Assembly: GCA_965223265.1 (NCBI GenBank)
Contig: OZ244999.1
Coordinates: 4,091,822-4,155,821, forward strand
Reading direction: 5' to 3'
Origin: Planctomycetota bacterium
GTDB lineage: Bacteria > Planctomycetota > UBA8108 > SXIK01
Length of the DNA stretch: 64,000 nucleotides
The notes beneath the pieces are model-generated. The model saw only the letters and a program-made list of their open reading frames with translations, had not been told where the DNA came from and did no database searches. Position 1 is the first letter of the stretch; each line of letters begins with the position of its first letter. The position numbers were made by a program, and so were the translations under genes. Below, in pieces: positions 6,633 to 53,424 of the stretch.

Positions 6633-6749
6633 AACTCTTTGTTCGTACGTCGTTGTCCACCTCGCCGTCGATAGCACACCTGACGATTTCAACCGAACAG
6701 GCGGATCTGTCGAGCGACGCGCTGACGTCAAAGTCAGTCGGCGTCTGAA

Positions 6750-8195
<1,446 letters not shown>

Positions 8196-8270
8196 TTGAT
8201 TCTTCGTCTCCTAACAGTCTGCTTGAAAAAAAGCCTCGCGCTCACCCCGACGTCGCCGCCGCAGGATCGG

Positions 8271-8831
8271 TCACTTGTCTCCGTTTCCGATACGTGAAAG
8301 CGACACCAGGGCGGTGTGCGATGAGGTGGTCTGCTCGGCGGGCTTGTCCAGATCGTCAACTAAACGAAGCAGCACTTCAACGTAGCCGCGCATCCAGTCT
8401 GCGACACTCTTCTCACTCGCGAGAAGGTCCGCTACGCTCGTGCGGTCGAGAATTGCGTCCAAGACGAGCTGCAGTCCCGACCAAAGCGAGCGCACCGAAC
8501 ACTCGCTCGAGTGCACGCAGAACTGGCGGTCGCCGCGGAAACGATCGCACAACTGTGGTTCGTACATCTTGCCGCCGAGTGCTGCGAGCACCGCGCCAAC
8601 CGAAATCTCCTCCGGCGGCAGCCTCAAGCGATAGCCGCCCTTGCAGCCACGGACACTCTCGACCAGATCGGCACGCGCGAGGATGCGAAAGAGCTTGCCC
8701 GCGTACTGCACAGACAGCCCTTCCGCGGCAGCGATCGAGCTCACCGTCTGAAAGTCCTGCTCGGCAGCAGTACTGCGCGCGAGGCCGATGAGGCATCGCA
8801 GCCCGTACTCTTCCTGTGCCGTAAACTTCAT
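8271..8831 (-). CDS. Rrf2 family transcriptional regulator (IscR/SufR-like), first gene of the suf cluster
   Basis: N-terminal wHTH typical of Rrf2 (MKFTAQEEYGLRCLIGLA...SVQYAGKLFRILARADLVESVRG). Sits directly upstream of sufB on the same strand. Confidence 0.8.
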   Translation of the reverse strand: MKFTAQEEYGLRCLIGLARSTAAEQDFQTVSSIAAAEGLSVQYAGKLFRILARADLVESVRGCKGGYRLRLPPEEISVGAVLAALGGKMYEPQLCDRFRGDRQFCVHSSECSVRSLWSGLQLVLDAILDRTSVADLLASEKSVADWMRGYVEVLLRLVDDLDKPAEQTTSSHTALVSLSRIGNGDK

Positions 8832-9644: not shown

Positions 9645-10099
9645 CTTTCATCTCCTAAAATGTAGCGGCCCGCCTGAAGACAGCGACGCGATCGAGAAGC
9701 CGAGCCTGTCACGCCTTAGTGCCACACCGAGCCATTCGTGCGAGTCTTCGCGCGCCGAGATCGCTTCGTGCAGGCAAGGGACGCTCCGAAACCTGCGAAC
9801 ACGGAGAAGCCGAATCGGCGGGCAACGTGTCGACGACAACGACACGAAACCTCTGGGTGCGGGGCCATAGTCGACCGCGTCAATACTCAAAACCGCAGAG
9901 AAAACGTGCGCCTGTGCCCTCGCAGAGCGAGCGGCTGGCAGGCACCCGGGAGTCTCTGAGAATTGCTGAGGACAAGAATCGGTCAAATTATACCAAACCC
10001 CGAGGGAAGGAAAGAGACGTTCCCTTTGTTCTTGACGCGCCCTCAGAAGGACGAAAAAAATGGGGCCTCTCAGGGACAACCACCACGAGGTCCAGCTCC

Positions 10100-12776: not shown

Positions 12777-13376
12777 TGACAGTTTCGATTTCGTTGACGT
12801 TTAAGTCTTCGTCACGTGCCTCCCGCACCTGAAACGATGCCCCCCTTGGTGCCCCAATCGAGAATGCCGAGCATGCTCGGTCCATCGTTTTGACCACGAT
12901 GCATCGCTACACTCGTCGGACCGCGGGTATCCACGACTTCGGACCGCGCGAACTCGACGCTGCCGGCCCGGCTCGGGGAAGCCGACGCACCGGGGCGTGC
13001 GGCAGGGGCGTACCGGGGGTGAATCTGGAATCTCATGTTCCGCTGCATCATCACCTCCGGTTGCGGGGATTGAATTCGGCTTCCAGGTCCCACCTGTCTC
13101 GACGTCCTGTTAGGGCGTCACGTGACGGACATGCTCAGTCCGGCCAAAGGTGGGCAACAATCGACGCAGCCTAGTCGCTCATGACATCCAAGTCAAACTC
13201 AAAAACGTTCGGTCGACCTCGTGGAGCCGCCACTGCCGGGCGAGATTCCTATGGGCATTTCGAACGACCAAGCAGCACGCCTGTGATAGGATGCGCTCAT
13301 GAAGCGTTTAGAATGCTTCCGACGGCGACAGCAATTGCTCGCCGCCGCCCAAAGGAGGCCTCGAGCACGCACGGCG

Positions 13377-15812
13377 ATGCGCCTGCGAACGGCACTTGTT
13401 CTCGTCACGCTCGGCGCTGCGGGATGGTCGCCGGGAATCGACGCGCAAACGCCGTCTCTTTTCCGCCGCGGCGATATCAACGTCGACGGCGCCGTTGACG
13501 TGAGCGACGCGATCGGTCTACTCGCCGGCCTTTTTCGAGGCGTCGCCTTGCCACCCTGTGACGACGCCGCCGACGCGAACGATAGTGGCGACCTCGATCT
13601 CTCCGACGCCATCTTCGTGCTTGGCTATTTGTTTCGCGGCGCCGCGCGGCCACCACATCCTGGACCGAATCTCTGCGGCCGCGATCCGACACCGGACGAA
13701 CTAAGCTGTGACGAGTACCTGGCGACCGTGCCCGAATTCAACTGCGAGAACGCCGTTGAACAAGTGTTTCGTGGCCGCTTCTACGGCAGCATTCTCATCA
13801 CGCCGATCGTCTCCGATCTCAACGGCGACGGGCGACTCGACGTCATCGGCGTGCGAAACCGCAGCCTGGTCGTGATGCCTGGCGTCGGAGGCGGCACGTT
13901 CGGTGCCCCGAGGAGCTATCCGGCTCCGCGCCCCTCGGATCTCAGACTGCTCGATGTCGATGGCGACGGCATCCGCGATGCAGTGACCATCAGCCCTGGA
14001 GGCCGTTCACTCAGTGTGTTTCGCGGATTCGAGGACGGCACGTTCGACGACGCCACAACAACTGCGTTCACCGACGAGCCCGTCGGGTTCGACGCCGGTG
14101 ACTTGAACGGCGACCTCCGCGGCGACTTCGTCGTCACGGTGCTTTCTGCCGCCGGAATCGCCTCACTCGAAACGTGGATCGGCACTCCAGACCTCGCCGC
14201 GCTCGAGCGACGCTTCACGACTGTTGTTATTGACACTCCGCGCATCGGAGATGCCGTCGATGGAAACTCACCGCGCCTCGGAGACTTCAACAGTGATGGC
14301 ATGAACGACGTCGTCATCGTCGGCGCCGCGCTCAGATTCTTTTGGGGTAGCGGAGATGGCATTCTCACACCAGGACCTACGCGACAATTAGCCGAGCCCG
14401 CGCACGCGCTGGTTGTCGCCGAGTTCGGGGGTGGGCCAGACGTCGACTTGGCCGTCGCAACGACAACCTCAATCTCCGTCCTGCGCGGCCTCGGAACTGG
14501 TACGTTCGAGGCAGCCACGCAGCTGCCCGTGGAGACAGTGTCTCTTGCAGTCGGCGATGTCGACAGTGATGGCGATGGTGATATCGTTGCCGATGGCGTA
14601 ACCCTCCTTCGCAACGACGACGCGCTGCGGTTTACGCTCGTACGCAACGGCTGGCCTGACGCCCGTGGGCCAGCCGCGCTGCAGGATCTTGATGACGATG
14701 GGAACGCGGACCTGGTCGTCCCCGCATCGGGAGGCGTCGTCGTTCTCAAGGGGTCAGGGAGTGCCGACTTTCCAGCGCCGCACCTCCAACCGACGACGAC
14801 GCGCCAAACGAACATCGCGGTCGAAGACTTCGACGACGATGCTCGCGTGGATTTCGCCGTGACGTCAGAGAGCAGCGACCGAGTGCTGATCTTCCTGGGA
14901 AGTGATGGAAACCGTTTTGATACCCTGCAGTCGTTCAGCGTCGGCAGTGATCCATCGTTTGTCCTCGCCGCAGACGTCGATGACGATGCCATCACCGACC
15001 TCGTAGTGTTGAGCTTGGAAGACGACAGCATGTCCATCTTACTCGGGAGCGGCGACGGCACGTTCTCGCCGCCACGATCGCAACTCGTGGGAGACTCGCC
15101 GCGCGGGGTTGCGGCCGCGGATATCGACGACGACGGCGCGACGGACCTGGTGGTCGCAAACGGTGGGGTGAATTCATTTTCCCGCGGCTCGCTCCTCGTT
15201 CTGCGAGGGTCCGGTCAGGGATCCTTTCCAGAGTCACGCCCTTTGCCTTCGAGTCGGCGCCCGTGGGCGGTGTCGATCGCGCACGTCAATAGCGATGACG
15301 TCCTCGACATCCTCGTGGCAAATGAGCGCTCCTCGACTGTGACGGTCCATGTTGGCACCGGCGATGGGCAGTTTCAGCAAGCTCGCGATTACTTGGTCGA
15401 CGTACAGCCGACATCGCTTGCCGTTGGCGATCTTGACGGTGACGGCAACCTCGATTTCGTTACCGGCAACGATCGAGGTCACAGCGTCACGGCCTACCTG
15501 GGGCTCGGTGACGGGCGTTTCGACCGGGCCGGCACATTCGGACTTGGGTTCGAGACAAGCGATATCAGCGTCGTGGATATCGATGGCGATGGGCTGGTGG
15601 ACGTTCTAGCGACAACGAGCGGCACCGGCCAGCTAGCGGTTTTTCGCGGCCATGGCGATGGCTGGCTTTCGCCTCCGGAGTCTTATCCGGCAGGAGTCGG
15701 ATCCCGCGCATTTGCGCCGGCCGACGTGGATGGAGATGGCGACTTCGACGTACTGATCACAAACGTCGCCCGCGACGGCGTGACGGTTCTTGAGAATTCC
15801 GCCGTGCGTTAG
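13377..15812 (+). CDS. Secreted FG-GAP/VCBS-repeat beta-propeller protein with an N-terminal dockerin-like domain
   Basis: Signal peptide MRLRTALVLVTLGAAGWSPG. N-terminal RRGDINVDGAVDVSDAIGLLAGLF...DANDSGDLDLSDAIFVLGYLF dockerin-like pair. Then >10 FG-GAP-type repeats (DxDGDGxxD ... V). ORF opens at 13299; the Met at 13377 was chosen. Confidence 0.75.
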   Translation: MRLRTALVLVTLGAAGWSPGIDAQTPSLFRRGDINVDGAVDVSDAIGLLAGLFRGVALPPCDDAADANDSGDLDLSDAIFVLGYLFRGAARPPHPGPNLCGRDPTPDELSCDEYLATVPEFNCENAVEQVFRGRFYGSILITPIVSDLNGDGRLDVIGVRNRSLVVMPGVGGGTFGAPRSYPAPRPSDLRLLDVDGDGIRDAVTISPGGRSLSVFRGFEDGTFDDATTTAFTDEPVGFDAGDLNGDLRGDFVVTVLSAAGIASLETWIGTPDLAALERRFTTVVIDTPRIGDAVDGNSPRLGDFNSDGMNDVVIVGAALRFFWGSGDGILTPGPTRQLAEPAHALVVAEFGGGPDVDLAVATTTSISVLRGLGTGTFEAATQLPVETVSLAVGDVDSDGDGDIVADGVTLLRNDDALRFTLVRNGWPDARGPAALQDLDDDGNADLVVPASGGVVVLKGSGSADFPAPHLQPTTTRQTNIAVEDFDDDARVDFAVTSESSDRVLIFLGSDGNRFDTLQSFSVGSDPSFVLAADVDDDAITDLVVLSLEDDSMSILLGSGDGTFSPPRSQLVGDSPRGVAAADIDDDGATDLVVANGGVNSFSRGSLLVLRGSGQGSFPESRPLPSSRRPWAVSIAHVNSDDVLDILVANERSSTVTVHVGTGDGQFQQARDYLVDVQPTSLAVGDLDGDGNLDFVTGNDRGHSVTAYLGLGDGRFDRAGTFGLGFETSDISVVDIDGDGLVDVLATTSGTGQLAVFRGHGDGWLSPPESYPAGVGSRAFAPADVDGDGDFDVLITNVARDGVTVLENSAVR

Positions 15813-16355: not shown

Positions 16356-19300
16356 ATGCTTCGACCTCGACCACACATCTTCGCCGCGATCGTTTGTCCT
16401 CTCCTGTGCATCGCGCTGACAGCAGCTCTTTCCGCCGCCGACTGCAACTTCAACGGCATTGAGGATGGCGACGAGACGGCTCAGTCAACAGACCTTGACT
16501 GCAACGCCAACGGCATCCCGGACACGTGCGAGACCGCACCGCCAGCATTTAGAGCGCGGTCTGTTCTGAGCGTCGGTGGCGTCGCCAACAGCTTTCCGTG
16601 CGGTGACGTCAACGGCGACGAGATCCCTGACGTGATCGCAGGACACAATCGCGGCTTCACGGTTCTCCTGCAGCGACCGGCCGAGAGAGAATTCGACGCC
16701 ACCGACTACCCGGTCGACGGTGCCGGCAAAAAGTGGCTCCTTTTGGACGTCGACAGCGACAATGATCTCGACGTCGTCGGTGTGCAGACACGCCGCGTAG
16801 TGACATTCCTCAACAATGGCGAGGCCGAGTTTGCGGGTCCCGTCGATACCGAGTTCGACTCGGGAGTTGAGTCGTTCGCCGCAGGCGACATCGATGCAGA
16901 CGGCATCGTTGACGTAGTGCTCACGAATCGGGTCCGCGACCAGGTCTCCGTTTTGTTCGGCCGCGGCGATGGCCGATTCGATCGCGCCGCCCATACGGCC
17001 GTCGGAGAGTTCCCACTCGCGGTGGCTATCGCCGACCTCGACGGCGACGGCGACCTCGACGTTGCGACCGCCAACCGCGATGGCAACAGCGTCACGCTCC
17101 TCTCCAACGATCAAGGCGAGCTGGGTGAACGACAGGACGTCCAGGTCTCTGGGAGCTCACCGCAAGCCATCGTCGCCGCAGACTTCGGCGGCACGTCGCT
17201 TCCCGAACTGGTTGTTGGCACTCTTTCTTCGACGCTACTTTTGGAGAATCGAGGCGGCGAGCTGACACCAAGAGACCTGACGGTCGGCCTCGGGATTCAG
17301 CAACTCAGCGTCACGGACGTCAACGGTGACGGAAAGGACGACATCGTTGGCAGCATTCTCGACCCGCGCGCGTTCTGGACACTGACGTCTCTCGACGCAG
17401 GTGAATTCTCCCTCCACTCCTTCAATCTTGGAGACCGGCCGGAGGCGACCGAGGGCTGTGACCTCGACGGCGATGGCGACAGCGAGCTGTGTCTCGGCTT
17501 CTTCGGACTCGAGACGGTGAACGTGCTCTGGAACGATGACAGCGTCGAGCGCAACTTTCTTTCGTTCGGCGCTCCTGAGTTTTACGAGGCGGGCGGAAGA
17601 CCGCACACCGCCGGCACGGCTGACTTCAACGGTGACGGACACCTCGACCTCGTCACCGGCAACAATCGCAACAGCTCGACGGGTATGTCGGTCTACATCA
17701 ATCGCGGCGATGGAACGTTTCTACCTCGCGCGCACTACAACTCCATCGCCAGATCGTTCGCGATGGTCGTCGACGATTTCGACTTAGACGGCCACCTGGA
17801 ATTCGCGGTGGCAGACCCCTCGCAGAATAAGCCGGACATCGGCGTCATGCGAAACCGAGGCGACGGCACGTTCGTCTCCAGCCATACGCACAATTTGACG
17901 GGAGGTGCGTTTCACGTCACATCAGGAGATCTCGACGGCGACAGTTTTCCTGACCTCGTTGCGTCGATGCAGGGTGTCGGTGCTGTCGCGCTACTCTTCA
18001 ATGCTGGAGACGGCACGTTCACGAACGTCACCGACATTCGCGTTGGCGCCCGTCCCGTGAGCGCCGCAGTGGTCGACGTGGACGATGACGGACACCGCGA
18101 CATCGCTGTAGCGACGCTTTCTGGGGGTGGGATCGATTTGCTTCGGGGTGATGGCAGCGGGCTCTTCTCAGATCCCGAGAGGTTTCCGTTGGCCAACTCG
18201 CCTTCGTTCGTGATTGCGGTCGACATGAACGTCGACGGAGCTCCGGATCTCGTCACCGTGAGCGAATCGGGACAGAACGCGACGGTTCTATGGAATCAAG
18301 GACGGGGAGGATTCTCGGCCTCGCAGCCGTGGCCGCTGCGGACAAAGCCCTATTCGGTCCTCGAGGGTGACATGAACGCCGACGGCTTGCCAGATATCGT
18401 TGCGCTCAGTGAGCTGATCGGGAATTTCTCGCTGCTGCTCAATGGCGGCGACATGACGTTCAGCTCTCCGATACTGCTCGGGACGGGGCCGGGGCCGCGA
18501 TACGGCGCGATCGGCGACTTCGATGGCACCGGGACGGATGACCTCATGAGTGCGAATCGCCCCGGCAACAGTATCACGGTGATCCGCAACCAAACGGATG
18601 TGGCGTCGTTTCCCGCGGCGGCGCTAGAGCTGATCTGCACGGAAAAGAACTTCCTCGATATCTCTCGCCGGGTCACCACGCGCGGTTTGACGGTACGAGC
18701 GACGAAGTACGTAGCGCCCGCGCGAGCCGACGACGCGTCGCTTCTCTCGACGCAGTACCAGAACGTCAACCGCTTCGAGCTGCACGAAGAGTTCCTCGGC
18801 GCGGTGTTCCCCGAGCGCTTCCCGTCGCTGCCGGGCGACCGCGAGTTCTACAACCAGCTCATCGGCCGCCGCGCCACGCGTGACTACTACGTCGGCGTCT
18901 TGACGCGTCGCCAAGCGGAAAGCGGCCCGCTCTACACCTTCACCGCCGTCACCGACACCGGCTTCAGCGTCGGCGAGATTCTCGAGCAAGAGGAGCTCGA
19001 AGGCCTCTACACCACTCTCAAGGAGTCGTTCACTCTCGAGCCCCTTGCCTACGAGCCCGACACCGAGCTCGCCCGCCGCAAAGCCGAGACCTTCCAAAAC
19101 CCACAGTTCCCCGTCCACTTCGACGACGGCGCCGCCGGGCTCGACTACGAGCCCTACACCCTCGCCACCGGCTACGGCCGCGTGCGACTCTTGACGCTCG
19201 AAGAGTTCAACGACGCCAACGACAGCGGCACCTTCACCTTCCAGGACGTCCTCGTCGTCGATCTCGCGCCGCGCGACATCGAAGGCATCGTCGGCGGTGT

Positions 19301-21797
19301 CATCACCGCCGAGCCCCAGGGAAACCTCAGCCACGTTGCCGTGCGCACCGCGCGACGCGGCACCCCCAACGCCTTCGTCAAAGACGCCCGCGACGTCTTC
19401 GCACCACTAGAAGGCAAGCTCGTGCGCCTGCAGGTCTTCGACACCGAGTTCTTCGTCGACGAGGTCGAGCTCGAAGAGGCCCAGGAGTTTTGGGACTCCA
19501 ACCGACCGCGCTTCGAACCGCCGCCCACGTTCGACGAGCTCTACAGCGCCCTCGACTCGCTCGCAGAGATCGACCTCGACAGCGACCCCGTCAGCCGCTT
19601 CGGCGGCAAGGCGAGCAACTTCTCCAGGCTCCAGCGCCTCCTCACCGGCACCTACCAGCAGTACCAAGAGCGCGGCTTCGCCATCCCCATGCACCACTAC
19701 CTGCGCTTCATGAACGAAAACACCCTCACACTCGAGGGCGGCAGAACCCTCACCTTTCAGCAACACCTCGACGAGATCCTCGCCGCCCCCGAGTTTCAGA
19801 GCGACTCGCAGCTGCGCTTTGAGGCCCTCGATGAGTTTCGCGATCGCGTCCGAGGCGAAGGCGTCGTCGACCCAGCACTGATCGCCGCGCTCGCTGTGCG
19901 CATCGAAGAGGTCTTCGGTGACACCACCACCATGGTGCGCTTTCGCTCCTCCTCCAACGTCGAAGACCGCCTCGTCTTCAACGGCGCCGGACTCTACGAG
20001 TCCACCTCGGTCTGCGCCCAGGACACCCTCGACCCCGCCTCCCCCGACGCCTCGCACTGCGACCCGACGCGCACCAATGAACGCACGATCGAACGCGCGC
20101 TCAAGAAAGTCTGGAGCAGCCTCTGGACCTTCAGAGCTCACGAGGAGAGGACCTTCTTTCAGATCCCCCCACAGCTCGCCTCCATGGGAATCCTCTGCAG
20201 CCGAGCCTTTCTTGACGAGAGCGCCAACGGCGTCGCCTTCACCGGAAACCCCACCAGTGTCGACGACAAGCGCTACGTCATCACCGCCCAGCTCGGCGAA
20301 GAGAGCGTCGTCAGCCCAGAGCCCGGAGTCTCGATCGAGCGCAGCTTGCTGGAAGTGGCAGGCGGCCAGGTCGTGCGCATCATCCGCGATCGCTCCTCAA
20401 CTCTTGTCCCACCCGGTGAGGTCATCCTCACCGACGAGCAGCTCATCGAGCTCGGAGGCGTCATGGCGCACGCCGACGCTGCGTTCGAGCTCGACCTCGA
20501 AGGGCACCAGCGGCGTGAGGTGCTGCTCGACTTCGAGTTCAAGATCGAGCCCGACGGTTCGCTCGCGATCAAGCAGGTGCGCCCTTTCCTCATTCCGAAC
20601 ACCGCGCCGAAAACGCCCACCTTCGAGCTCGAGGTGCCTGAGGGAAGCATGGTCTGCTCAGTCTTCTCCAAGGAGCGCGTCGGACGCGAGCCGCGCCGCG
20701 AGTTCGAAACCAAGAGCACCGTGCGGCTGGTGCCCGGGGTGATCACGCTGCCGACGGCCAGTGACACGCTCTCCGGCGAGCTCTTCGCTGAGGTGCGCTT
20801 CGGAGCAGCGCAGGAACTCGCCGTGCCGCTCGAGGACGGGCTCTTTCGACTCGAGAAGGTGAGCGCCGGCGGCAGTCTGACCACCTATCGATTCAGCTTC
20901 GAGCAGACCTTTGCCCTCGGTGAGAGCGACGTGCTCGCGCTGCGCGTCTTTGGCATCGACTTTAAGGGACGCGGCGAAGTGCCGATCGAGCCCGCCGTCA
21001 CCCTCAACGACGAATACCTGACGTTCGACCTCACCATGGAAGCAGAGCTCAACGGCGAGCCCATCGCAAGCTACTCCTCATGCACCTACTCCCTCCTGCC
21101 GCAGTTCGAGCTCGCCTTCGAACTCGACGGCGGTGACTCCATCAATATCAGAGAGCGGTTCCTCGAAGCCGAGAGCTTAACGTCCACCGGACCGGCGGCT
21201 GTCGTCCACGCTGCCGTGGAGCTCGGCGGCGAGCGTCGCGTCGTCACCGACTACTGGAAACTCGTCTACACCGCACAGCGACACAACTTGGAAGTACGCT
21301 ACTGGATTCTCTTCGAGCCAGCGATCTCCGCCGCTGGACTAGCGAAACCGGTTCACGCCGTGGAGGTCGCGCCGGCCGACCGTGAAATCGTCGTGCCGCC
21401 AGGTGCGCCGCCCATCGTAAGGCGCACCGAGTCGAGCGTCACGTTCCTCGACGCTGACTTTGAGCCTATTGCAACGCCCGCCGTCATCGACTTCTCGCGC
21501 CGCACGGTCGACTCGACGGAACCGCGGTTTCGCCGCGGTGACGTCAACTCCGATGGCATCATCGACCTCGCCGATGCTCTCGCCGAGCTCAGTTATCTAT
21601 TCCGCAGTGGTGAGACACCCGTTTGCCTCAAGGCTGCCGACGCCGACGATGATGGTCGACTCAACGTCTCCGATGCGATCACGATTCTTCTGCACCTGTT
21701 TCGAGGTGCTGGGCCGCTGCCGCAGCCGGGCGTCGCATGTGGAGTCGACTCCTCGTCGGACGCACTCGCATGCGAGTCGCAAAGCGGTTGCCGATAA
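16356..21797 (+). CDS. Giant secreted multidomain protein A (1813 aa): signal peptide, Ca-binding Cys-rich motif, FG-GAP repeats, PEP-utilizing phospho-His domain, PPDK_N ATP-grasp domain, unknown beta domain, C-terminal dockerin-like domain
   Basis: MLRPRPHIFAAIVCPLLCIALTAALSA signal. DCNFNGIEDGDE / DLDCNANGIPDTCE. Many FG-GAP repeats. GGVITAEPQGNLSHVAVRTARRGTPNAFV resembles the PEP-utilizers swivel His motif. GGKASNFSRL, VRFRSSSNVEDRLVFNGAGLYES and KKVWSSLWTFRAHEER resemble PPDK_N/PEP-synthase ATP-grasp motifs. C-terminal RRGDVNSDGIIDLADALAELSYLF...DADDDGRLNVSDAITILLHLF dockerin-like. Confidence 0.85.
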   Translation: MLRPRPHIFAAIVCPLLCIALTAALSAADCNFNGIEDGDETAQSTDLDCNANGIPDTCETAPPAFRARSVLSVGGVANSFPCGDVNGDEIPDVIAGHNRGFTVLLQRPAEREFDATDYPVDGAGKKWLLLDVDSDNDLDVVGVQTRRVVTFLNNGEAEFAGPVDTEFDSGVESFAAGDIDADGIVDVVLTNRVRDQVSVLFGRGDGRFDRAAHTAVGEFPLAVAIADLDGDGDLDVATANRDGNSVTLLSNDQGELGERQDVQVSGSSPQAIVAADFGGTSLPELVVGTLSSTLLLENRGGELTPRDLTVGLGIQQLSVTDVNGDGKDDIVGSILDPRAFWTLTSLDAGEFSLHSFNLGDRPEATEGCDLDGDGDSELCLGFFGLETVNVLWNDDSVERNFLSFGAPEFYEAGGRPHTAGTADFNGDGHLDLVTGNNRNSSTGMSVYINRGDGTFLPRAHYNSIARSFAMVVDDFDLDGHLEFAVADPSQNKPDIGVMRNRGDGTFVSSHTHNLTGGAFHVTSGDLDGDSFPDLVASMQGVGAVALLFNAGDGTFTNVTDIRVGARPVSAAVVDVDDDGHRDIAVATLSGGGIDLLRGDGSGLFSDPERFPLANSPSFVIAVDMNVDGAPDLVTVSESGQNATVLWNQGRGGFSASQPWPLRTKPYSVLEGDMNADGLPDIVALSELIGNFSLLLNGGDMTFSSPILLGTGPGPRYGAIGDFDGTGTDDLMSANRPGNSITVIRNQTDVASFPAAALELICTEKNFLDISRRVTTRGLTVRATKYVAPARADDASLLSTQYQNVNRFELHEEFLGAVFPERFPSLPGDREFYNQLIGRRATRDYYVGVLTRRQAESGPLYTFTAVTDTGFSVGEILEQEELEGLYTTLKESFTLEPLAYEPDTELARRKAETFQNPQFPVHFDDGAAGLDYEPYTLATGYGRVRLLTLEEFNDANDSGTFTFQDVLVVDLAPRDIEGIVGGVITAEPQGNLSHVAVRTARRGTPNAFVKDARDVFAPLEGKLVRLQVFDTEFFVDEVELEEAQEFWDSNRPRFEPPPTFDELYSALDSLAEIDLDSDPVSRFGGKASNFSRLQRLLTGTYQQYQERGFAIPMHHYLRFMNENTLTLEGGRTLTFQQHLDEILAAPEFQSDSQLRFEALDEFRDRVRGEGVVDPALIAALAVRIEEVFGDTTTMVRFRSSSNVEDRLVFNGAGLYESTSVCAQDTLDPASPDASHCDPTRTNERTIERALKKVWSSLWTFRAHEERTFFQIPPQLASMGILCSRAFLDESANGVAFTGNPTSVDDKRYVITAQLGEESVVSPEPGVSIERSLLEVAGGQVVRIIRDRSSTLVPPGEVILTDEQLIELGGVMAHADAAFELDLEGHQRREVLLDFEFKIEPDGSLAIKQVRPFLIPNTAPKTPTFELEVPEGSMVCSVFSKERVGREPRREFETKSTVRLVPGVITLPTASDTLSGELFAEVRFGAAQELAVPLEDGLFRLEKVSAGGSLTTYRFSFEQTFALGESDVLALRVFGIDFKGRGEVPIEPAVTLNDEYLTFDLTMEAELNGEPIASYSSCTYSLLPQFELAFELDGGDSINIRERFLEAESLTSTGPAAVVHAAVELGGERRVVTDYWKLVYTAQRHNLEVRYWILFEPAISAAGLAKPVHAVEVAPADREIVVPPGAPPIVRRTESSVTFLDADFEPIATPAVIDFSRRTVDSTEPRFRRGDVNSDGIIDLADALAELSYLFRSGETPVCLKAADADDDGRLNVSDAITILLHLFRGAGPLPQPGVACGVDSSSDALACESQSGCR

Positions 21798-21898
21798 GCC
21801 CGCCGGAGAACGCGGCGCCAGAGCGCGAGTTGCCACTGGCGAACACCGGGGACCTCAATGGCTGGATCAACGCGAGAACGGGCGGTTATGCTGGTGGC

Positions 21899-27938: not shown

Positions 27939-28142
27939 GCCTGCACGACACCTCCGTCCCCAACGAAACACTCGGCGGCAAGTGGTCCGCATGCGCATGC
28001 GCACTCGACCTCGCGCACTGACACTCACCGCCACGGCGATGGCAACAGGGTATCACAGTCAGAGGCAATCTTGACTAACTTCGCGCTACTGAACTGCCCA
28101 CACGGTGCCCCAGAGGCCTGCGATGCGAAGCAGACACCAGGG

Positions 28143-47739: not shown

Positions 47740-50700
47740 TCAATCGCACGGCGCGTATGACGCGCAATCGAGCGCATCCGCGGTGAGATCGCGACCGCAA
47801 AACGGAAACGGGGGCGCGATTCCAGCTTCGCCGCCGAAGAGATGCAGCAGGACCCTGATCGGATCGGAGACGGTCAAACGCCCGTCATCGTCAACGTCTG
47901 TGGACTTGAGACAACTCGGGATGAGGCCATCGCGAAAAAGGAACTCGAGCGCGTAAATCGCATCGGCGAGTTGTATGTCGCCATCAGCGTTGGCGTCGCT
48001 GCGGCGAAATCGGACATCTATCGCAGTGTCCGTGAGCCGCTGAAACGCGTTCACTTCAACCGCCGCGATGACCTGAAAGTCGCTGTCGAGATAGGCCGCG
48101 GCCGGGTTCGGCATGATCGGCGGCTCGGGTGCGGCGAGTTCAATTGCCCGCACCGGTCGTTCAACGAGCGCCAAATCGATCGGCGGATCAAAGACGATGA
48201 GATACTTCACGAAAGTATTGTGACGAAATGACGCATAGACGAGATTCCAGTAGTCCGCCACACGCAGATACGCTGATTCCGCAGCGACTTCGGCGGCGAC
48301 CAAGCTTGCCGGTCCGGTGCGACTTGGGTCTGGGCTAGGGATCGAGCGCTCTCGCAACCTCAGGCTCGTGCCATCCGCGAGTTCGGCCTCGATCGCCCAG
48401 AGGTCGAGAAGTTCGTAGGTGCACGACGAATACGCCACGCGCAGTGCGGCATCGCCGTCCGAGAATCCGGTCATGAAAAGCTCGTCGGTGATGAACTCTT
48501 CGTCAAGGATGACCTCACCGCGCTGCGGAACGCCGCCGGCAGCGCTAAACTCGACGTCGTCCAGGGTCACGACGAATGTTTCCCCGGCCGTACCTGGCAA
48601 GCTGAAGCGCTGCTCGTAGGTAAAACGATAAAGTGTCTCGCCGCCCGCACCGGGCCGTTTCGTCGCGCGCATTCGCCCGCGGCCGAGCGGCGTCGCTGTC
48701 ACCTGCGCAGGCCCAATCAGCACTTCGTCGATCAGGTCTAAACTGATCGATCCGGTCCGCCCGGCAAGCTCGAAGGTACCTGCACGCAGTCGTACGCGGC
48801 TCTTCGACGCCAGTCCGACCAAAGGGTCTTCTTCCGGAGCATTGACGTCGAGGACACCGCAGACGCTCGTCTCAGCGGGAATCTCCAGGACAAACATCGG
48901 CGTCGGTTGCCGCTCGGAGGTCAAGAGGAATGGCCGCACCTGCTTGACCGCCAGATCGCCGCTTGCTTCGATCTTGAACTCAAGGTCGAGCAAGACGTCG
49001 TCACGATCATGTTCGCCAAGAACGACGGGGAAATTCTGGTCCATGTGCCACATGACGGCGCCGAGCTCGCGGAGCGCCGCGTCGGTCATGACCAACGCAT
49101 CGCTCTCCACGAGCGTCGAACGCGTGGCGCGGATGATCTCCACGACCTCGCCGTCGACCACGTCGAGGAGCGTTTTCTCCGGCAACACGCCGGGTTCGGG
49201 ACTGACGACACTCTCCTCGCCAACTTGTGCTGTGACGACAAAGCGCCGGTCGTCAGGGTTCGCCGGGTCGCCAGTGAACGCGACGCCGTTGACCCGCTCG
49301 TCGAGGAAGGCGCGATTGACCAGAATGCCCATCGCGGCACTCGCCTGGGGAATCTGAAAAAAGGCGCGCTCTTCGTGGGCACGAAAAGTCCACAGGCTTG
49401 TCCACACCTTCTTGAGCGCACGCTCAAGCGTACGCTCGTTCGATTTGCTCGCGTCACAAAGCGATGGTCCCTCGTCATCACCGTCGAGCTGATCGGCTAG
49501 GCACGCTCCCGTGGACTCGTAGAGGCCAGCGCCGTTGAACTCGAGTAGGTCCTCGACGTTCGACGACGAGCGAAAACGGATCGATGTAGTCGCAGAAAAA
49601 ACTTCTTCGATACGGCTCCGCAGCAAAGCCAGAAGCTCGGGTGAAACCACGCCGGTGTCGCGCGCGACGTCGCGAAACGCCTGCAGCGCTTCAAAGCGCC
49701 GTCGTGAATCCGTTTGAAAATCCTCGAGCGTTGCGAGCTCGGTAAGAAACTCCTCGTACGAGACCTGACGGCCCGGATCGACCGGCGATGCCGTCCGGTT
49801 CCCCCGCATGAACTCCGTGTAGTAGCGTACGGGGATCGCGAAGCCTTTCTCGCGGTAGTCGGCAAACACTCCATCGAGAATCGTCTGCAGACGCGCGAGA
49901 TTGCTCGCCTTGCCGCCAAAGCGGGACTCCGGCAAGCCGCCCAGATCGAAGTCGGTGAGACGGTCCAGCGCTGCGTAGTTCGCGTCGAACGGCGGCAGGG
50001 CTGGCAACTGCGGTCGGTTCTCCTGCCAAAACGCCTCGGCGTCGGACAAATCCGCCGGGCTGACCTCGAACGAACTCTCGGTCACCTCGAGGCGGATCAA
50101 CTGATCGTCGAAAGGCGAGAAGCGTGCGCGCGCGTCCGCGACGAACGCGTTTGGCGTTCGTCGGCGCGCGGTGCGTACGGCAACGTGGCTCAAGGTTCCT
50201 TGTCGAGAACCGGTGATGACGCCGCCGACCACTCCCTCGATGTCACGAGGTGCTTCGTCGATGACGAGGACATCCTGAAACGTGAAAGCACCCGCTGCGT
50301 TCGCCGCCTCGAACTCCTCGAGCGTCAGCACCCTCACGCGCCCGAAACCGACTCCCGTCGTGTAAGCCTCAAAGTCGACAGCAGGGCCGGTATCGATGTC
50401 CAGAAGCACCTCAAATCCTGGATTCAACCAGCTTTCGGCGGTCTCTCGCGCAATCGGCGTATCCGGTAGATACGCAAGCGGCTGCAAGCTGATCGACTCG
50501 CGCAGGCGGTCGTACACATCCTTGACCTCAGCGACACCCAGCGCTTCGGACGCGCCGCTCCCGGTGTCAGCAACGACAGTAAAGGCATACACAAATGCGC
50601 CATCCGAGCGCAGTCGCTTGAGCGAACCGACATAGTAGTCGCGCGTCGCTCGGAGGCCAACCAATCGGTTGTACTCGGCTGGCCCCAGCGCCGGGAAGCG

Positions 50701-53160
50701 TTCAGGAAACACGCTAGCGAGGAAATCCTGATGCAGCTGGAAACGATGCGTGTTTTGGAAGGCCGTCGTCAGCAGCGCAGCATCGTCTCGCGCCGGAAGC
50801 ACGAACTTCGTTTCGCGCTCGCCCACAGCGCGTCGACGAGACGGGACGGCGACGCTGCGAAAATCGTTTTGCGTGCAGAGGCGAGGCAGGAAGTCGACAG
50901 TCGCAGGAAACTCCGTCGCGTTGTGCGACACGATGAGTTGGTTGTCCTGTCGATTCATGACGAGAAGATCGATCTTGCCGTCCTGATCGATGTCTTCGGA
51001 GACAGCGTACCGCGGCCCACTGCTGACCGCGCTGATCTGAACGGCTTCGACGAACGCATGAAGCGGTTCGGCAAACGTGCCATCGCCCCGGTTGACGAAA
51101 AGCGCCAGGCCGAGCGAGATTTCGTTCGACGTGACGAGGTCAAGGTGCCCATCTCCGTTGTAGTCTCCGGAGGTCATGGAGTACGGCAACTGCCGCACCG
51201 GATAGGTCCGCACAGTCTCGAATCGCAGCCCGCCGCGATTCTCCACCACCGCCATTTCTTGTTCGTTTTGGTTCGATGCCGCCAGGTCGTCGTCACCGTC
51301 GCCGTCCCAATCGCCCGCGACGACGAAGCTCGTACGCCCGAACGTCTCAATCGAACCAACGTGCTCGAAGGACGCGGAACCGTCGTTCGCCAGGATCTCC
51401 AGTTTGCCGGCTCCATTCGCGGCGACGAGGTCAAGGTCATGGTCGGCATCAAAGTCGCGTGCAACGACGCCCAGGAAGCGCCCCGGGATTCTGATGATGT
51501 CGACGCGCGGAAACGTGCCATCGCCGGCGTTGTGCAAAATCGTCACCGACGCGCCGCTGTCGGCGGTGATCACTTCGGGCCGTTCGTCACCGTTTAAATC
51601 GGCAGCGATGGCGTAAAACGGATCCACCCCACCAATGTAGTAGGCGCTCGATTCAAAGGTGCCGTCCGCATAGTTCAGCATGATCTCGGTGCGCCTGTCG
51701 TTCAAAAACGGCGACGCCACGTCGATGCTCCCGTTGCCGTCGAAATCGGCGGTCACGATAGAATTCGGATAGCCGTCGGCCGGTCGCGTCGCAGCCACCG
51801 AAAAAGCGCCTCTCCCGTCGTTGAGCAAGTAACAGGTAATGAACGCCCCGCCATGCCCGAACACGACGTCGAGGTCGCCGTCCTGATCGAGGTCGGCCAG
51901 CGATGGCGGCGAGTGCGGACGACTACCGCCTTCGTAAATGCGACTCACAAAACTTAACGCGCGGCCGTTCATCAGCATGCCGATCGAATCCGGGACTCGC
52001 TTCGCGACGCCAACGTCGATCGCCCCGTCGCCGTTCAGGTCGCCCGTTGCCACCCAGACCGCTTCTCCCTCCACGGCCACGTCGCGGCGCGCTTGAAAGC
52101 TGCCGTCGCCGCGGTTGACGAGCACGGCGACGGAGCGCGGTTCAGTTCCCACGATGACGTCCGTCGAACGATCGGAGTTGATATCGCCGACGCCGATGCA
52201 GCGGCCTTGAATCGCGAACGTTGCGTGCTCCTCCAAACGCCGTTCGGAACGGCTCGCGGTGAGCACGACCACGCCTTCCGCTGCCATCAAGGCGATGTCG
52301 TCGACCGAGTCGCCCGACACGTCCGCAACGGCAAACGTACGTGGATTCCCAACCGCCACAGACGCCGCGGTCTCTTCAAACCCGGCGTCTTCGCTTCCCC
52401 AAAGGACCGTGACGCCTGACGGCAGCAGGGCGGCGACGTCCTGCAGGCCATCCGCATCAAAGTCGCCACACGCGAGCGCCGCGATGTCCCCCACCATGTC
52501 GCGGGCCGCTAGCGGCGGTTCGAAAGTGCGTCCTTCGACGCCGCGAGCGACAAACAGCGCCTCGGATCCAAACCGCGCCAAGAGAAGGTCCTTGATGCCG
52601 TCGCGATCAACATCCGTGACCGCCACGGTCCGGGCGCCCTCAAAAGCGAACGAATCTGGCGTCCGTGGAAAGCTGCGTTCGCCGTCGTTCCACAAAATGA
52701 ACACCGCGTTCGGTTCCACATTGACGACGTCGAGAAACCCGTTGCCGTCGAGGTCGGCGACAACGAGGTCGATCGTGTCGGCACCGAGGCGACGGTAGGT
52801 CGGAGTTCCGACCACACCGTCCTCGTCTTGAAAAAAAATCCCGATCGTCGAACCCGCAGGACCGAGCGCGGCACTCATGAGATCGCTACGGCCGTCGCCG
52901 TCGAAGTCATGAACTGCGACGCGACGCGGGATGCCGCGCTGCTTCAGTCCGGGCACCGTCAAACCGAGCTCGAGCATGCCGAGCTCGCACTCGTCGGGTA
53001 CGCCGTCACCGTTACAGTCCTCGCTCGCGCTCGTGGCAAGGTCCATAGCGTCGTCGACACGGTTGCCGTTACAGTCAACGGCAGTCACAAACTCGACAGA
53101 GGCGAAAACGAACGTCGCCACAAGGACGTGGAGCGCCGCACAACGCGCTGATTCTTGCAT
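47740..53160 (-). CDS. Giant secreted multidomain protein B (~1806 aa), paralog of 16356..21797 with the same architecture
   Basis: Signal MQESARCAALHVLVATFVFASVEFVTA with GGAG Shine-Dalgarno sequence before the ATG at 53160. DCNGNRVDD / EDCNGDGVPDECE. FG-GAP repeats. GGVITGSRQGTLSHVAVRTARRRTPNAFV. GGKASNLARLQ, IRFRSSSNVEDLLEFNGAGLYES, KKVWTSLWTFRAHEER. C-terminal RRSDANADGDIQLADAIYALEFLF...DVDDDGRLTVSDPIRVLLHLF. Confidence 0.85.
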   Translation of the reverse strand: MQESARCAALHVLVATFVFASVEFVTAVDCNGNRVDDAMDLATSASEDCNGDGVPDECELGMLELGLTVPGLKQRGIPRRVAVHDFDGDGRSDLMSAALGPAGSTIGIFFQDEDGVVGTPTYRRLGADTIDLVVADLDGNGFLDVVNVEPNAVFILWNDGERSFPRTPDSFAFEGARTVAVTDVDRDGIKDLLLARFGSEALFVARGVEGRTFEPPLAARDMVGDIAALACGDFDADGLQDVAALLPSGVTVLWGSEDAGFEETAASVAVGNPRTFAVADVSGDSVDDIALMAAEGVVVLTASRSERRLEEHATFAIQGRCIGVGDINSDRSTDVIVGTEPRSVAVLVNRGDGSFQARRDVAVEGEAVWVATGDLNGDGAIDVGVAKRVPDSIGMLMNGRALSFVSRIYEGGSRPHSPPSLADLDQDGDLDVVFGHGGAFITCYLLNDGRGAFSVAATRPADGYPNSIVTADFDGNGSIDVASPFLNDRRTEIMLNYADGTFESSAYYIGGVDPFYAIAADLNGDERPEVITADSGASVTILHNAGDGTFPRVDIIRIPGRFLGVVARDFDADHDLDLVAANGAGKLEILANDGSASFEHVGSIETFGRTSFVVAGDWDGDGDDDLAASNQNEQEMAVVENRGGLRFETVRTYPVRQLPYSMTSGDYNGDGHLDLVTSNEISLGLALFVNRGDGTFAEPLHAFVEAVQISAVSSGPRYAVSEDIDQDGKIDLLVMNRQDNQLIVSHNATEFPATVDFLPRLCTQNDFRSVAVPSRRRAVGERETKFVLPARDDAALLTTAFQNTHRFQLHQDFLASVFPERFPALGPAEYNRLVGLRATRDYYVGSLKRLRSDGAFVYAFTVVADTGSGASEALGVAEVKDVYDRLRESISLQPLAYLPDTPIARETAESWLNPGFEVLLDIDTGPAVDFEAYTTGVGFGRVRVLTLEEFEAANAAGAFTFQDVLVIDEAPRDIEGVVGGVITGSRQGTLSHVAVRTARRRTPNAFVADARARFSPFDDQLIRLEVTESSFEVSPADLSDAEAFWQENRPQLPALPPFDANYAALDRLTDFDLGGLPESRFGGKASNLARLQTILDGVFADYREKGFAIPVRYYTEFMRGNRTASPVDPGRQVSYEEFLTELATLEDFQTDSRRRFEALQAFRDVARDTGVVSPELLALLRSRIEEVFSATTSIRFRSSSNVEDLLEFNGAGLYESTGACLADQLDGDDEGPSLCDASKSNERTLERALKKVWTSLWTFRAHEERAFFQIPQASAAMGILVNRAFLDERVNGVAFTGDPANPDDRRFVVTAQVGEESVVSPEPGVLPEKTLLDVVDGEVVEIIRATRSTLVESDALVMTDAALRELGAVMWHMDQNFPVVLGEHDRDDVLLDLEFKIEASGDLAVKQVRPFLLTSERQPTPMFVLEIPAETSVCGVLDVNAPEEDPLVGLASKSRVRLRAGTFELAGRTGSISLDLIDEVLIGPAQVTATPLGRGRMRATKRPGAGGETLYRFTYEQRFSLPGTAGETFVVTLDDVEFSAAGGVPQRGEVILDEEFITDELFMTGFSDGDAALRVAYSSCTYELLDLWAIEAELADGTSLRLRERSIPSPDPSRTGPASLVAAEVAAESAYLRVADYWNLVYASFRHNTFVKYLIVFDPPIDLALVERPVRAIELAAPEPPIMPNPAAAYLDSDFQVIAAVEVNAFQRLTDTAIDVRFRRSDANADGDIQLADAIYALEFLFRDGLIPSCLKSTDVDDDGRLTVSDPIRVLLHLFGGEAGIAPPFPFCGRDLTADALDCASYAPCD

Positions 53161-53424
53161 ACTCACTCCGCGAACAACCTCGGCTAGTCTCACCGCACAC
53201 AATTGTAACGGACGCCTCGGCGATTCAGCTCACTGTTCGTCGAGAAACATCGACGTACGCAGCCGAACGTTCCGTCTCCACCTGAAGGAGACTGGGAGAC
53301 ACCGTACACCTCAGTCGCGATCAAAGATTATTCGATCGTCCGAAGTCCTCGCTTCCCGTAGCATGAAGGCGAAGCGCTCGCGAGCCATCAGCGCTCGGAA
53401 CACTCGAGTCTATCAGGTAGCTCC

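What the first reader, a model, noticed from the sequence alone, without database searches (positions are those of the whole stretch)
16356..21797. Giant secreted protein with permuted PEP-synthase-like module (His swivel domain before ATP-grasp) fused to FG-GAP propeller and dockerin
The central ~600 aa combine a PEP-utilizing-enzyme mobile domain (GGVITAEPQGNLSHVAVRTARRG, catalytic His present) followed by a PPDK_N ATP-grasp nucleotide-binding domain (GGKASNFSRL; VRFRSSSNVEDRLVFNGAGLYES; KKVWSSLWTFRAHEER). In PEP synthase, PPDK and rifampin phosphotransferase the ATP-grasp comes first, so this looks circularly permuted. The module sits in a ~1,800-aa protein with a cleavable signal peptide, thrombospondin-type-3-like Ca-binding Cys motifs, more than 10 FG-GAP repeats and a C-terminal dockerin-like domain. 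That implies an ATP/phospho-His phosphotransferase displayed outside the cell, which is unusual. This architecture may be undescribed.
Basis: partly seen in the sequence, partly recalled or inferred. Interest (0 to 1): 0.85.

Follow-up and report, generated by a model that had tools for sequence, protein, structure and literature searches.

The report
Exported three-part histidine dikinase fusion
This is a real 1,813-residue gene that joins a calcium-binding propeller, an ATP-driven phospho-histidine "dikinase" built in the same domain order as plant starch dikinases, and two domains with no known relatives, and the whole protein is predicted to work outside the cytoplasm, where ATP is not expected to be available.

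Summary
ORF 16356-21797 (+) encodes signal peptide, ~14 FG-GAP blades, unknown N-domain, phospho-histidine swivel domain (His993), PPDK_N ATP-grasp, unknown tandem beta-barrel C-domain and dockerin-like tail.

The "novel circular permutation" reading is not upheld. His-before-ATP-grasp is the established order of plant glucan water dikinases (GWD/PWD), and the His domain's best Pfam match is GWD1_pHisD.

The catalytic His and the ATP/Mg motifs are conserved in 93-96 of 96 homologs, so this is not a decayed pseudo-enzyme.

Export is predicted consistently: Sec or lipoprotein signal peptides across phyla, no other TM segment, and invariant or co-varying Cys pairs.

The family is large (2,498 representatives; at least 561 loci in species genomes, nearly all MAGs), multi-copy, generically annotated and absent from the searched literature. 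A 41%-identical paralog lies at 47740-53202 (-).

In three Myxococcota-like loci, the dikinase, the C-domain and the FG-GAP proteins are separate neighbouring lipoprotein genes. The giant protein is therefore a fusion of a conserved three-part extracytoplasmic system.

The substrate and the ATP source remain unknown. Verdict: a new variant of a known enzyme kind, of moderate to high interest.

The parts
16356..16439 (+). Predicted Sec signal peptide (residues 1-28; MLRPRPH / IFAAIVCPLLCIALTAAL / SAA|DC)
   Evidence: This is the only hydrophobic segment in the protein (KD19 2.45, residues 5-30). Equivalent N-termini occur in 73 of 95 homologs, and most of the rest are truncated. This is heuristic; no SignalP was run.
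16440..16535 (+). Cys/Asp-rich motif pair DCNFNG...DCNANGIPDTCE at the mature N-terminus
   Evidence: Conserved in paralog 2, P0002, P0041 and P0121. No Pfam hit, including TSP_3.
16563..18590 (+). FG-GAP/VCBS repeat region, about 14 blades (probably two 7-bladed Ca-binding beta-propellers)
   Evidence: PF13517 with 11 stretches at E 2.6e-65, and PF01839 at E 1.7e-18. There are 12 DxDxDG motifs at ~48-aa spacing.
18609..19157 (+). N-domain (residues 752-934), alpha/beta, no known relatives; invariant K784, H810, Y832, R842
   Evidence: Present in 86 of 88 complete family genes. No Pfam hit in 22 of 22 members and no PDB sequence hit. Modelled with high confidence as part of the core.
19158..19505 (+). 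Phospho-histidine swivel domain (residues 935-1050); catalytic His993 is the codon at 19332-19334
19533..20591 (+). PPDK_N-type ATP-grasp nucleotide-binding domain (residues 1060-1412), with an invariant Cys1220/Cys1235 pair in a family-specific acidic insert
20592..21503 (+). C-domain (residues 1413-1716): all-beta, tandem barrel-like, with conserved ER..GPA..DYWxLVYxAxHHN motif and co-varying Cys1434/Cys1576
21519..21797 (+). Dockerin-like Ca-binding module with 4 Cys (residues 1722-1813) plus stop codon
   Evidence: PF00404 at E 1.1e-4, 22.7 bits against a cut-off of 22.9. Two DxNxDG/DxDDDG loops are visible. The same module occurs at 13461 (+), at ~40452 (-) and at the end of paralog 2.
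47740..53202 (-). Paralog 2: 1820-aa protein of the same architecture (true start probably the Met 14 codons downstream)
   Evidence: 41% identity end to end. FG-GAP and PPDK_N by Pfam. All catalytic motifs, the N, catalytic and C-domain profiles, and a dockerin-like tail are present.
13299..15812 (+). Upstream 837-aa FG-GAP protein with an N-terminal dockerin-like module; possibly associated, not shown to be
   Evidence: PF13517 with 9 stretches at E 8e-62; dockerin-like module at 13461. Separate FG-GAP genes also flank family members in L001, L002, L004, L088, L091 and the JGI contig.

Best explanation
The gene encodes an exported (periplasmic or surface-attached) histidine-swivel dikinase that is fused to its two usual partners.

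Proposed mechanism, by analogy with GWD, PPDK and RPH: the ATP-grasp domain binds ATP/Mg. His993 on the swivel domain takes the beta-phosphate, AMP is released, and the gamma-phosphate goes to water or phosphate. The swivel domain then carries the phosphate to an acceptor held by the family-specific N-domain, probably helped by the C-terminal tandem barrel.

The FG-GAP propellers and the dockerin-like tail bring the enzyme to its target or fix it at the cell surface. The most likely acceptor is an extracytoplasmic polymer, with a glycan as first choice.

Shown here: the domain anatomy, conservation of the catalytic residues, the GWD-like order, the consistency of export signals, family size, and the split-gene versus fused arrangement.

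Inferred: catalytic activity, which domain binds the acceptor, the nature of the substrate, and where the ATP comes from.

For: (2) The order is GWD-like, and the His domain is GWD-type.

(3) Export is predicted consistently. The window protein has a single N-terminal hydrophobic segment. Signal-peptide-like N-termini run straight into the core in stand-alone homologs. Short Myxococcota-like forms carry lipoboxes. Cys1220/Cys1235 are invariant and Cys1434/Cys1576 co-vary. Fusion partners are extracellular-type modules: FG-GAP, dockerin, LTD, DUF1566 and BNR.

(4) There is a Rosetta-stone relation. In L091, a JGI contig and L088, the dikinase, a C-domain lipoprotein (profile E 1.4e-32 and 2.4e-22) and FG-GAP/MopE proteins are adjacent genes. 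Start and stop overlap in L091. In the window all three are one polypeptide.

(5) The N-domain is always present with His-ATP (86 of 88), and the short forms end right after the ATP-grasp. The N-domain is therefore the best candidate for the acceptor site.

(6) Hints towards a glycan: lectin-like and carbohydrate-type accessory domains, and neighbouring GHL10, sulfatase, GT2 and Wzz/Wzy genes in some loci.

(7) Precedent for a periplasm-targeted ATP-dependent enzyme with a phenotype: Lig E (PMC10799422; bioRxiv 10.64898/2026.03.22.713542).
Against: - No ATP source is known in the periplasm or outside the cell, and none was identified here.
- The signal peptide rests on heuristics only.
- No carbohydrate-binding module of a known CBM family was found.
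- The neighbourhood of the Planctomycetota copies is not conserved beyond FG-GAP genes.
- The C-domain's nearest folds (calycin, avidin, AttH and Diels-Alderase-type barrels, Z no higher than 7.1) usually bind small hydrophobic ligands rather than polymers.
- The closest solved ATP-grasp relatives (RPH, HpeI) act on small molecules.
- One distant C-domain homolog (P0337) is not next to a dikinase.
Confidence: 0.5

Rival explanations
1. The catalytic mechanism and the export are the same, but the acceptor is a small molecule (an antibiotic, lipid, sterol- or carotenoid-like compound or a phenolic) captured by the tandem beta-barrel C-domain. This would be an RPH- or phenylphosphate-synthase-like modifying or detoxifying enzyme acting in the periplasm.
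For: The C-domain's best fold matches are ligand-binding 8-stranded barrels: avidins, PliC, AttH, CrtC-like hydratase, Diels-Alderases and a 25-phosphosteroid lyase. The closest solved ATP-grasp domains are rifampin phosphotransferase and HpeI, which both belong to small-molecule systems. A conserved polar cluster (R1601, Y1633, Y1638, H1643, N1644) in the C-domain looks like a binding or catalytic site.
Against: All fold matches are weak (Z no higher than 7.1) and indicate only a generic barrel. About 15 of 88 family genes lack the C-domain altogether, and only some of these have it as a neighbouring gene. Large propellers, dockerin, LTD, DUF1566 and BNR partners are unusual for small-molecule enzymes. 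The ATP-supply problem is the same.
Confidence: 0.2
2. It is a delivered toxin or effector. It is exported and then transferred into a neighbouring or prey cell, where it uses that cell's ATP to phosphorylate a target or simply to burn ATP to AMP.
For: It is exported and multi-copy per genome, with at least 7 loci in some MAGs. The accessory domains vary. In Myxococcota-like genomes it is a lipoprotein. From my own knowledge, myxobacterial outer-membrane-exchange toxins are lipoproteins. This reading would solve the ATP problem.
Against: No secretion-system or translocation markers (Rhs, PAAR, VgrG, LXG, CdiA-type) appear in the protein or nearby. No conserved small immunity-like gene was found. 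The enzymatic core is conserved while the periphery varies, and it is not at the extreme C-terminus. That is the opposite of the polymorphic-toxin pattern. The conserved partners are FG-GAP and barrel proteins that are also lipoproteins.
Confidence: 0.08
3. It is not a working dikinase outside the cell. The module serves instead as a nucleotide (extracellular ATP) sensor or binding module, or as a structural part of a surface adhesin.
For: ATP is scarce outside the cytoplasm. Most of the protein mass (propellers, barrel, dockerin) is of a binding type.
Against: The phospho-acceptor His and the residues that align with the Mg/phosphate-binding positions of PEPS/RPH are invariant over 96 sequences at 35-55% identity, and across phyla. 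Binding alone would not require the His.
Confidence: 0.07
4. The protein is cytoplasmic. On this reading the N-terminal hydrophobic stretch is a mis-called start or an uncleaved anchor that leaves the module inside, and the enzyme uses cytoplasmic ATP like other dikinases.
For: No dedicated signal-peptide predictor could be run. The h-region (18 residues) is long for a cleaved signal peptide. One family member (P0101, CHAT fusion) has no signal peptide.
Against: The positive charges are N-terminal to the hydrophobic segment, so even an uncleaved anchor would place the rest outside (positive-inside rule, established knowledge). Lipoboxes in the short forms, conserved Cys pairs, Ca-binding FG-GAP and dockerin-like modules, and the consistency of the feature across phyla all point outside.
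Confidence: 0.04

Closest known systems
[quoted passage not shown]
   Same: The order is the same: targeting modules, then a pre-His domain, then the phospho-His domain, then a C-terminal-side PPDK_N ATP-binding domain (PMC13553574). The His domain's best Pfam match is GWD1_pHisD. The ATP domain resembles RPH most closely, as reported for GWD1. The presumed chemistry is beta-phosphate to His and then to the acceptor (PMC7569903).
   Different: There are no CBM45 or CBM20 modules. The pre-His domain is alpha/beta, whereas GWD1's central domain consists of 20 helices in three clusters (PMC13553574), and no sequence similarity to any known domain was detected. A ~300-aa barrel domain follows the ATP-grasp. 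The protein is bacterial, with a signal peptide and conserved Cys pairs. The PF22973 score is below the Pfam threshold. The substrate is unknown.
Rifampin phosphotransferase RPH (e.g. Listeria 5hv1/5hv6)
   Different: RPH runs ATP-grasp, then rifampin-binding domain, then His domain, and is cytoplasmic. Here the His domain precedes the ATP-grasp, and no RIF-binding domain is present.
PEP synthase (EC 2.7.9.2) and pyruvate phosphate dikinase (EC 2.7.9.1)
   Different: There is no PEP/pyruvate TIM-barrel domain (no PF02896 hit), and the domain order is reversed. The NCBIfam PEP synthase score is 25.8 against a cut-off of 598.
Split dikinase-like systems (HpeI of Rhodococcus, 9goj; phenylphosphate synthase, the latter from my own knowledge)
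   Different: Those systems are cytoplasmic and act on phenolics. Their split falls between the ATP and His parts, which here are always fused.
[quoted passage not shown]
   Same: It is an ATP-dependent enzyme with a signal peptide and demonstrated extracytoplasmic roles (PMC10799422; bioRxiv 10.64898/2026.03.22.713542). It raises the same open question of where the ATP comes from.
   Different: Its fold and chemistry are unrelated.

Membership tests
His-swivel ATP-grasp dikinase superfamily (PPDK/PEPS/RPH/GWD) | PPDK_N-type ATP-grasp nucleotide-binding domain | tested here: met
His-swivel ATP-grasp dikinase superfamily (PPDK/PEPS/RPH/GWD) | Conserved ATP/Mg-binding motifs (GGK, RSS..ED, W.SLW..RA, D.E...Q.R) | tested here: met
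   At least 93 of 96 conservation. The motifs align to PEPS 8a8e and RPH 5hv6.
His-swivel ATP-grasp dikinase superfamily (PPDK/PEPS/RPH/GWD) | Swivelling phospho-carrier domain with a catalytic His at the start of a short helix | tested here: met
His-swivel ATP-grasp dikinase superfamily (PPDK/PEPS/RPH/GWD) | ATP-dependent autophosphorylation and transfer of the beta-phosphate to an acceptor | not testable with these tools
   Needs biochemistry.
Glucan water dikinases (GWD/PWD) | His domain immediately N-terminal to the ATP-binding domain | tested here: met
   Residues 935-1050, then 1060-1412. GWD order from PMC13553574.
Glucan water dikinases (GWD/PWD) | His domain belongs to Pfam PF22973 GWD1_pHisD | tested here: inconclusive
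   The window protein scores 17 bits, below the cut-off of 27. 27 of 38 members match at E up to 1, best 1.8e-5, against 4 of 38 for PF00391.
Glucan water dikinases (GWD/PWD) | N-terminal starch-binding modules (CBM45 or CBM20) | tested here: not met
   No such Pfam hit. The N-terminal region is FG-GAP repeats.
Glucan water dikinases (GWD/PWD) | Helical central domain before the His domain (20 helices in three clusters in GWD1, PMC13553574) | tested here: not met
   The N-domain is mixed alpha/beta by DSSP on the model. It has no Pfam or PDB sequence match.
Glucan water dikinases (GWD/PWD) | Phosphorylation of alpha-glucan | not testable with these tools
   Needs an enzyme assay.
PEP synthase / PPDK | Order ATP-grasp, His domain, PEP/pyruvate-binding TIM barrel | tested here: not met
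   The order is reversed and there is no PEP-utilizers_C hit. NCBIfam PEPS scores 25.8 bits against a cut-off of 598.
Rifampin phosphotransferase | ATP-grasp, rifampin-binding domain, C-terminal His domain | tested here: not met
   The His domain is upstream of the ATP-grasp. Only the ATP domain aligns.
Type I dockerin | Pfam PF00404 above threshold with duplicated Ca-binding loop-helix | tested here: inconclusive
   22.7 bits against a cut-off of 22.9, E 1.1e-4. Two loops, DVNSDGIID and DADDDGRLN, are visible in the sequence. The four extra Cys are not typical of cellulosomal dockerins.
Type I dockerin | Cognate cohesin partner | not tested
   No cohesin search was made.
FG-GAP/VCBS beta-propeller proteins | Tandem FG-GAP repeats with DxDxDG Ca loops | tested here: met
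   PF13517 at E 2.6e-65 and PF01839 at E 1.7e-18. 12 motifs at ~48-aa spacing.

The most novel reading that the evidence does not exclude
The family is a widespread bacterial system (dikinase plus barrel protein plus FG-GAP propeller, either fused or encoded as an operon). On this reading it carries out ATP-dependent phosphorylation of a polymer, most likely a glycan, outside the cytoplasmic membrane. That would be a bacterial, extracytoplasmic counterpart of starch phosphorylation by GWD. It would imply that usable ATP reaches the periplasm or cell surface in Planctomycetota, Myxococcota and relatives.
Probability: 0.3. Interest if true: 0.85.

Novelty: new variant of a known kind. Interest (0 to 1): 0.62.

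Why it matters
Dikinases of this type have so far been treated as enzymes of ATP-containing compartments (cytoplasm or plastid).

This family has thousands of members. Its catalytic residues are fully conserved, and it carries export signals in several phyla. It is tied to two partner modules, either by gene fusion or by operon.

If it is active outside the cytoplasm, it poses the energy-supply question sharply and makes it testable in a defined system. It could also reveal an unknown extracellular phosphorylation reaction on glycans or other compounds in environmentally abundant, mostly uncultured bacteria.

It also adds two domain families (N and C) that no Pfam model matched here, and a bacterial lineage with the GWD-type domain order. 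That lineage bears on the origin of plant starch dikinases.

Tried and rejected
- A profile search with the minimal unit (A4) returned only family members and did not reach GWD, PWD or other named families.
- phmmer of the core against PDB sequences gave only a marginal PEPS hit. The profile version worked.
- The N-domain had no Pfam hit in 22 members and no PDB sequence hit.
- The 'thrombospondin type 3' label for the N-terminal Cys motif was not supported.
- The exact window protein and P0039 are not on record in the contig index.
- The gene neighbourhood of Planctomycetota stand-alone copies has no conserved operon beyond recurrent FG-GAP genes.
- The window neighbours (sulfatase, 3-keto-disaccharide hydrolase/PQQ, MFS, phosphoesterase and others) show no evident link.
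- Literature searches for secreted or bacterial GWD-like dikinases, and for PPDK_N with FG-GAP, found nothing relevant.
- I considered and rejected a lipoprotein signal in the window protein, because Asp precedes Cys30 and that does not fit a lipobox.
- I considered and rejected a Tat signal, because there is no twin-arginine motif.
Full report
**Observation**

The ORF at 16356..21797 (+) is real and exactly as described. It is 1813 aa with an ATG start and a TAA stop, and its GC3 of 0.78 matches other genes of the window.

Pfam finds FG-GAP_3 (11 stretches, E 2.6e-65), FG-GAP, PPDK_N at residues 1081-1412 (54.8 bits, cut-off 27) and Dockerin_1 at residues 1728-1774 (22.7 bits, cut-off 22.9). 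NCBIfam gives only far sub-threshold hits to PEP synthase and PigC/RedH over the ATP-grasp.

**The His segment**

PF00391 does not hit the window protein. Scanned alone, residues ~950-1055 hit only PF22973, the phosphohistidine domain of alpha-glucan water dikinase (E 0.005, 17 bits, below the cut-off of 27). Across 38 family members, 27 hit PF22973 (best E 1.8e-5) and only 4 hit PF00391 (best 0.036).

**The ATP-grasp**

These positions are conserved in 93-96 of 96 homologs at 35-55% identity.

**Domain order**

It is not new. Potato GWD1 is organised as two CBM45 modules, a central domain, the catalytic-His domain and then the ATP-binding domain (PMC13553574). GWD and PWD use the beta-phosphate-to-His-to-acceptor mechanism (PMC7569903). 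That paper also notes that the GWD1 ATP domain superposes best on RPH, as this one does.

The protein nonetheless fails several GWD membership features. It has no CBM45 or CBM20. Its pre-His domain is alpha/beta and is not built of helices alone. PF22973 scores below threshold. It works like a GWD-type dikinase, but I do not file it as a GWD.

**The true unit**

Homology searches with residues 747-1716 show that the conserved core is ~970 aa, not ~600. It comprises the N-domain (752-934), the His domain (935-1050), the ATP-grasp (1060-1412) and the C-domain (1413-1716).

The word-indexed search found 227 clusters. The exhaustive representative search found 2,498 representatives at E up to 1e-3 and 814 at E up to 1e-30. 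These include dozens of ~1,800-aa proteins with the core at ~750-1720, which is the same giant architecture. All source names are generic: 'FG-GAP-like repeat-containing protein', 'PEP/pyruvate-binding domain-containing protein' or 'hypothetical'.

A scan of GTDB species genomes found at least 561 loci, and the 80 best listed are nearly all MAGs. They are mostly Planctomycetota, often with at least 7 copies per MAG, but also Verrucomicrobiales, Omnitrophota, Kiritimatiellae, Myxococcales/Nannocystis and Chloroflexi.

The window itself has a second copy at 47740..53202 (-). It is 1820 aa, 41% identical end to end, and has all motifs and a dockerin-like tail.

**The N and C domains**

- **N-domain.** It has no Pfam hit in 22 members and no PDB sequence hit. 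It accompanies the His-ATP pair in 86 of 88 complete genes. Its invariant residues are K784, H810, Y832 and R842.

**Location**

The window protein has one hydrophobic segment (residues 5-30), preceded by two Arg and followed by SAA|DC. There is no other TM-like segment. By the positive-inside rule, even an uncleaved anchor would leave the bulk of the protein outside.

Stand-alone ~1,070-aa homologs begin with a signal-peptide-like segment that runs straight into the core. In total, 73 of 95 homologs pass a simple hydrophobicity test, and most of the others are N-terminally truncated.

The ~700-aa forms in Myxococcota-like genomes (N-domain, His domain and ATP-grasp only) carry lipoboxes such as LISC, LVAC, LLAGC and ALAC.

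Cys1220 and Cys1235, in an acidic insert of the ATP-grasp, are invariant (96 of 96). Cys1434 and Cys1576 are present together or absent together in 92 of 96 sequences. This pattern is expected for disulfides in exported proteins. One member with a CHAT fusion lacks a signal peptide. No dedicated predictor was available, so export is a strong prediction and not a demonstration.

**The key contextual result**

Planctomycetota stand-alone copies have no conserved operon, but FG-GAP genes recur beside them (L001, L002, L004).

For the short forms the picture is sharper:

- **L091:** dikinase (701 aa), then a 349-aa lipoprotein whose start overlaps the dikinase stop, then two FG-GAP/MopE proteins.
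- **A 114-kb JGI contig:** an FG-GAP/MopE protein, the dikinase (705 aa), a 356-aa protein, and two further FG-GAP/MopE proteins.
- **L088:** the dikinase, a CotH gene on the other strand, a 355-aa lipoprotein and an FG-GAP/MopE protein.

A profile of the window-type C-domain hits the 355-aa and 349-aa proteins at E 2.4e-22 and 1.4e-32, across almost the whole domain. These stand-alone C-domain lipoproteins form a family of their own, with 57 clusters and no Pfam model. One distant member (P0337) is not next to a dikinase.

So the three parts that are separate adjacent genes there (FG-GAP protein, dikinase, C-domain) are one polypeptide in the window. This is a Rosetta-stone relation, and it argues that the propeller and the barrel are functional partners of the enzyme rather than incidental decorations.

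Architecture counts over 88 complete genes:

| Architecture | Genes |
|---|---|
| N + His-ATP + C + dockerin | 20 |
| FG-GAP + N + His-ATP + C + dockerin | 18 |
| N + His-ATP + C | 15 |
| N + His-ATP | 15 |
| FG-GAP + N + His-ATP + C | 8 |
| Other | 12 |

**Mechanism (inferred)**

ATP/Mg binds the ATP-grasp. His993 takes the beta-phosphate. The swivel domain delivers it to an acceptor bound by the N-domain, probably with the C-domain. The propellers and the dockerin-like tail target or anchor the enzyme.

I favour a polymeric, probably glycan, acceptor for three reasons. The accessory domains seen in the family are of binding or carbohydrate type (FG-GAP, LTD, DUF1566, BNR, dockerin). Carbohydrate-related neighbours occur in some loci (GHL10, sulfatase, GT2, Wzz/Wzy). 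GWD offers a working analogy.

The main rival is a small hydrophobic acceptor held by the barrel, as in RPH or HpeI. Less likely rivals are a delivered toxin that uses target-cell ATP, a non-catalytic nucleotide sensor or adhesin, and a mis-predicted cytoplasmic enzyme.

The unsolved problem for all exported readings is the ATP source. Lig E shows that periplasm-targeted ATP-dependent enzymes can be functional.

**Novelty and verdict**

The catalytic kind is known, and so is the His-then-ATP order. Four things are new: a large bacterial family with consistent export signals, two domains without known relatives, the fusion and operon link to FG-GAP propellers, and the absence of any description in the searched literature.

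I rate it a new variant of a known kind with interest 0.62.

Noticed in passing
window 47740-53202 (-): A second giant paralog (1820 aa, 41% identical end to end) has the same FG-GAP + N + His + ATP-grasp + C + dockerin-like build and all catalytic motifs. The listed TTG start is probably too far upstream; a Met 14 codons in gives a normal signal peptide.
   Followed up: yes
window 13299-15812 (+): An 837-aa protein directly upstream of the giant gene has an N-terminal dockerin-like module followed by ~12 FG-GAP repeats. This echoes the separate FG-GAP genes that flank family members in other genomes.
   Followed up: partly
window ~40168-42678 (-), module near 40452: A further secreted beta-propeller-type protein ends in the same Cys-containing dockerin-like module (RRGDCNDDGDADISDA...). 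The module therefore seems to be a general tag of exported proteins in this genome, and no cohesin partner was looked for. An SBBP-repeat protein lies next to it at 37348-39513 (-).
   Followed up: partly
window 21737-24040 (+): A 767-aa ORF with good GC3 (0.77) and no Pfam hit overlaps the last 61 nt of the giant gene, so its true start is probably further downstream. A 372-aa ORF at 28143-29261 (-) also has no Pfam hit.
   Followed up: partly
window 4441-8831 (-): A Suf iron-sulfur cluster assembly block: two SufB/SufD-type genes (4441-5877 and 6750-8195) and an Rrf2-family regulator (8271-8831).
   Followed up: no
window 9719-12142 (+), 26457-28034 (-), 34637-36409 (+), 59297-60991 (+): Gene content typical of Planctomycetota-like polysaccharide degraders: 3-keto-disaccharide hydrolase fused to a PQQ-like propeller, a sulfatase, a purple-acid-phosphatase-like metallophosphoesterase, and a weak GHL10 hit. 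None is shown to be linked to the dikinase.
   Followed up: partly
L086 5028-7004 and L090 5459-6996: Short-form dikinase genes are directly preceded by two paralogous ~250-aa secreted proteins. The last one's stop overlaps the dikinase start in L086, and it ends 4 nt before the start in L090. Their C-termini (GC, hydrophobic stretch, RRRR) look like the MYXO-CTERM sorting signal. That identification is from memory and was not tested with a model.
   Followed up: partly
L088 9126-10418 (-) and L006 14832-18839 (-): CotH-family kinase genes (one fused to LTD domains) lie next to or near family members. This is a second type of ATP-using enzyme associated with extracellular or coat contexts in the same neighbourhoods.
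   Followed up: no
L002 155-3346 and 8001-11198: Two stand-alone dikinase paralogs lie on one contig, separated by a GHL10/Golvesin_C protein and an 808-aa FG-GAP protein, next to a Tad/Flp pilus cluster.
   Followed up: no
window residues 1216-1240 of the giant protein (about nt 20001-20075): A family-specific insert in the ATP-grasp (STSvCAxDxLDxDxxGPSxCDP) has two invariant Cys and several conserved Asp. It is absent from PEP synthase and RPH in the profile alignment. It could be a disulfide-stapled or Ca-binding loop.
   Followed up: partly
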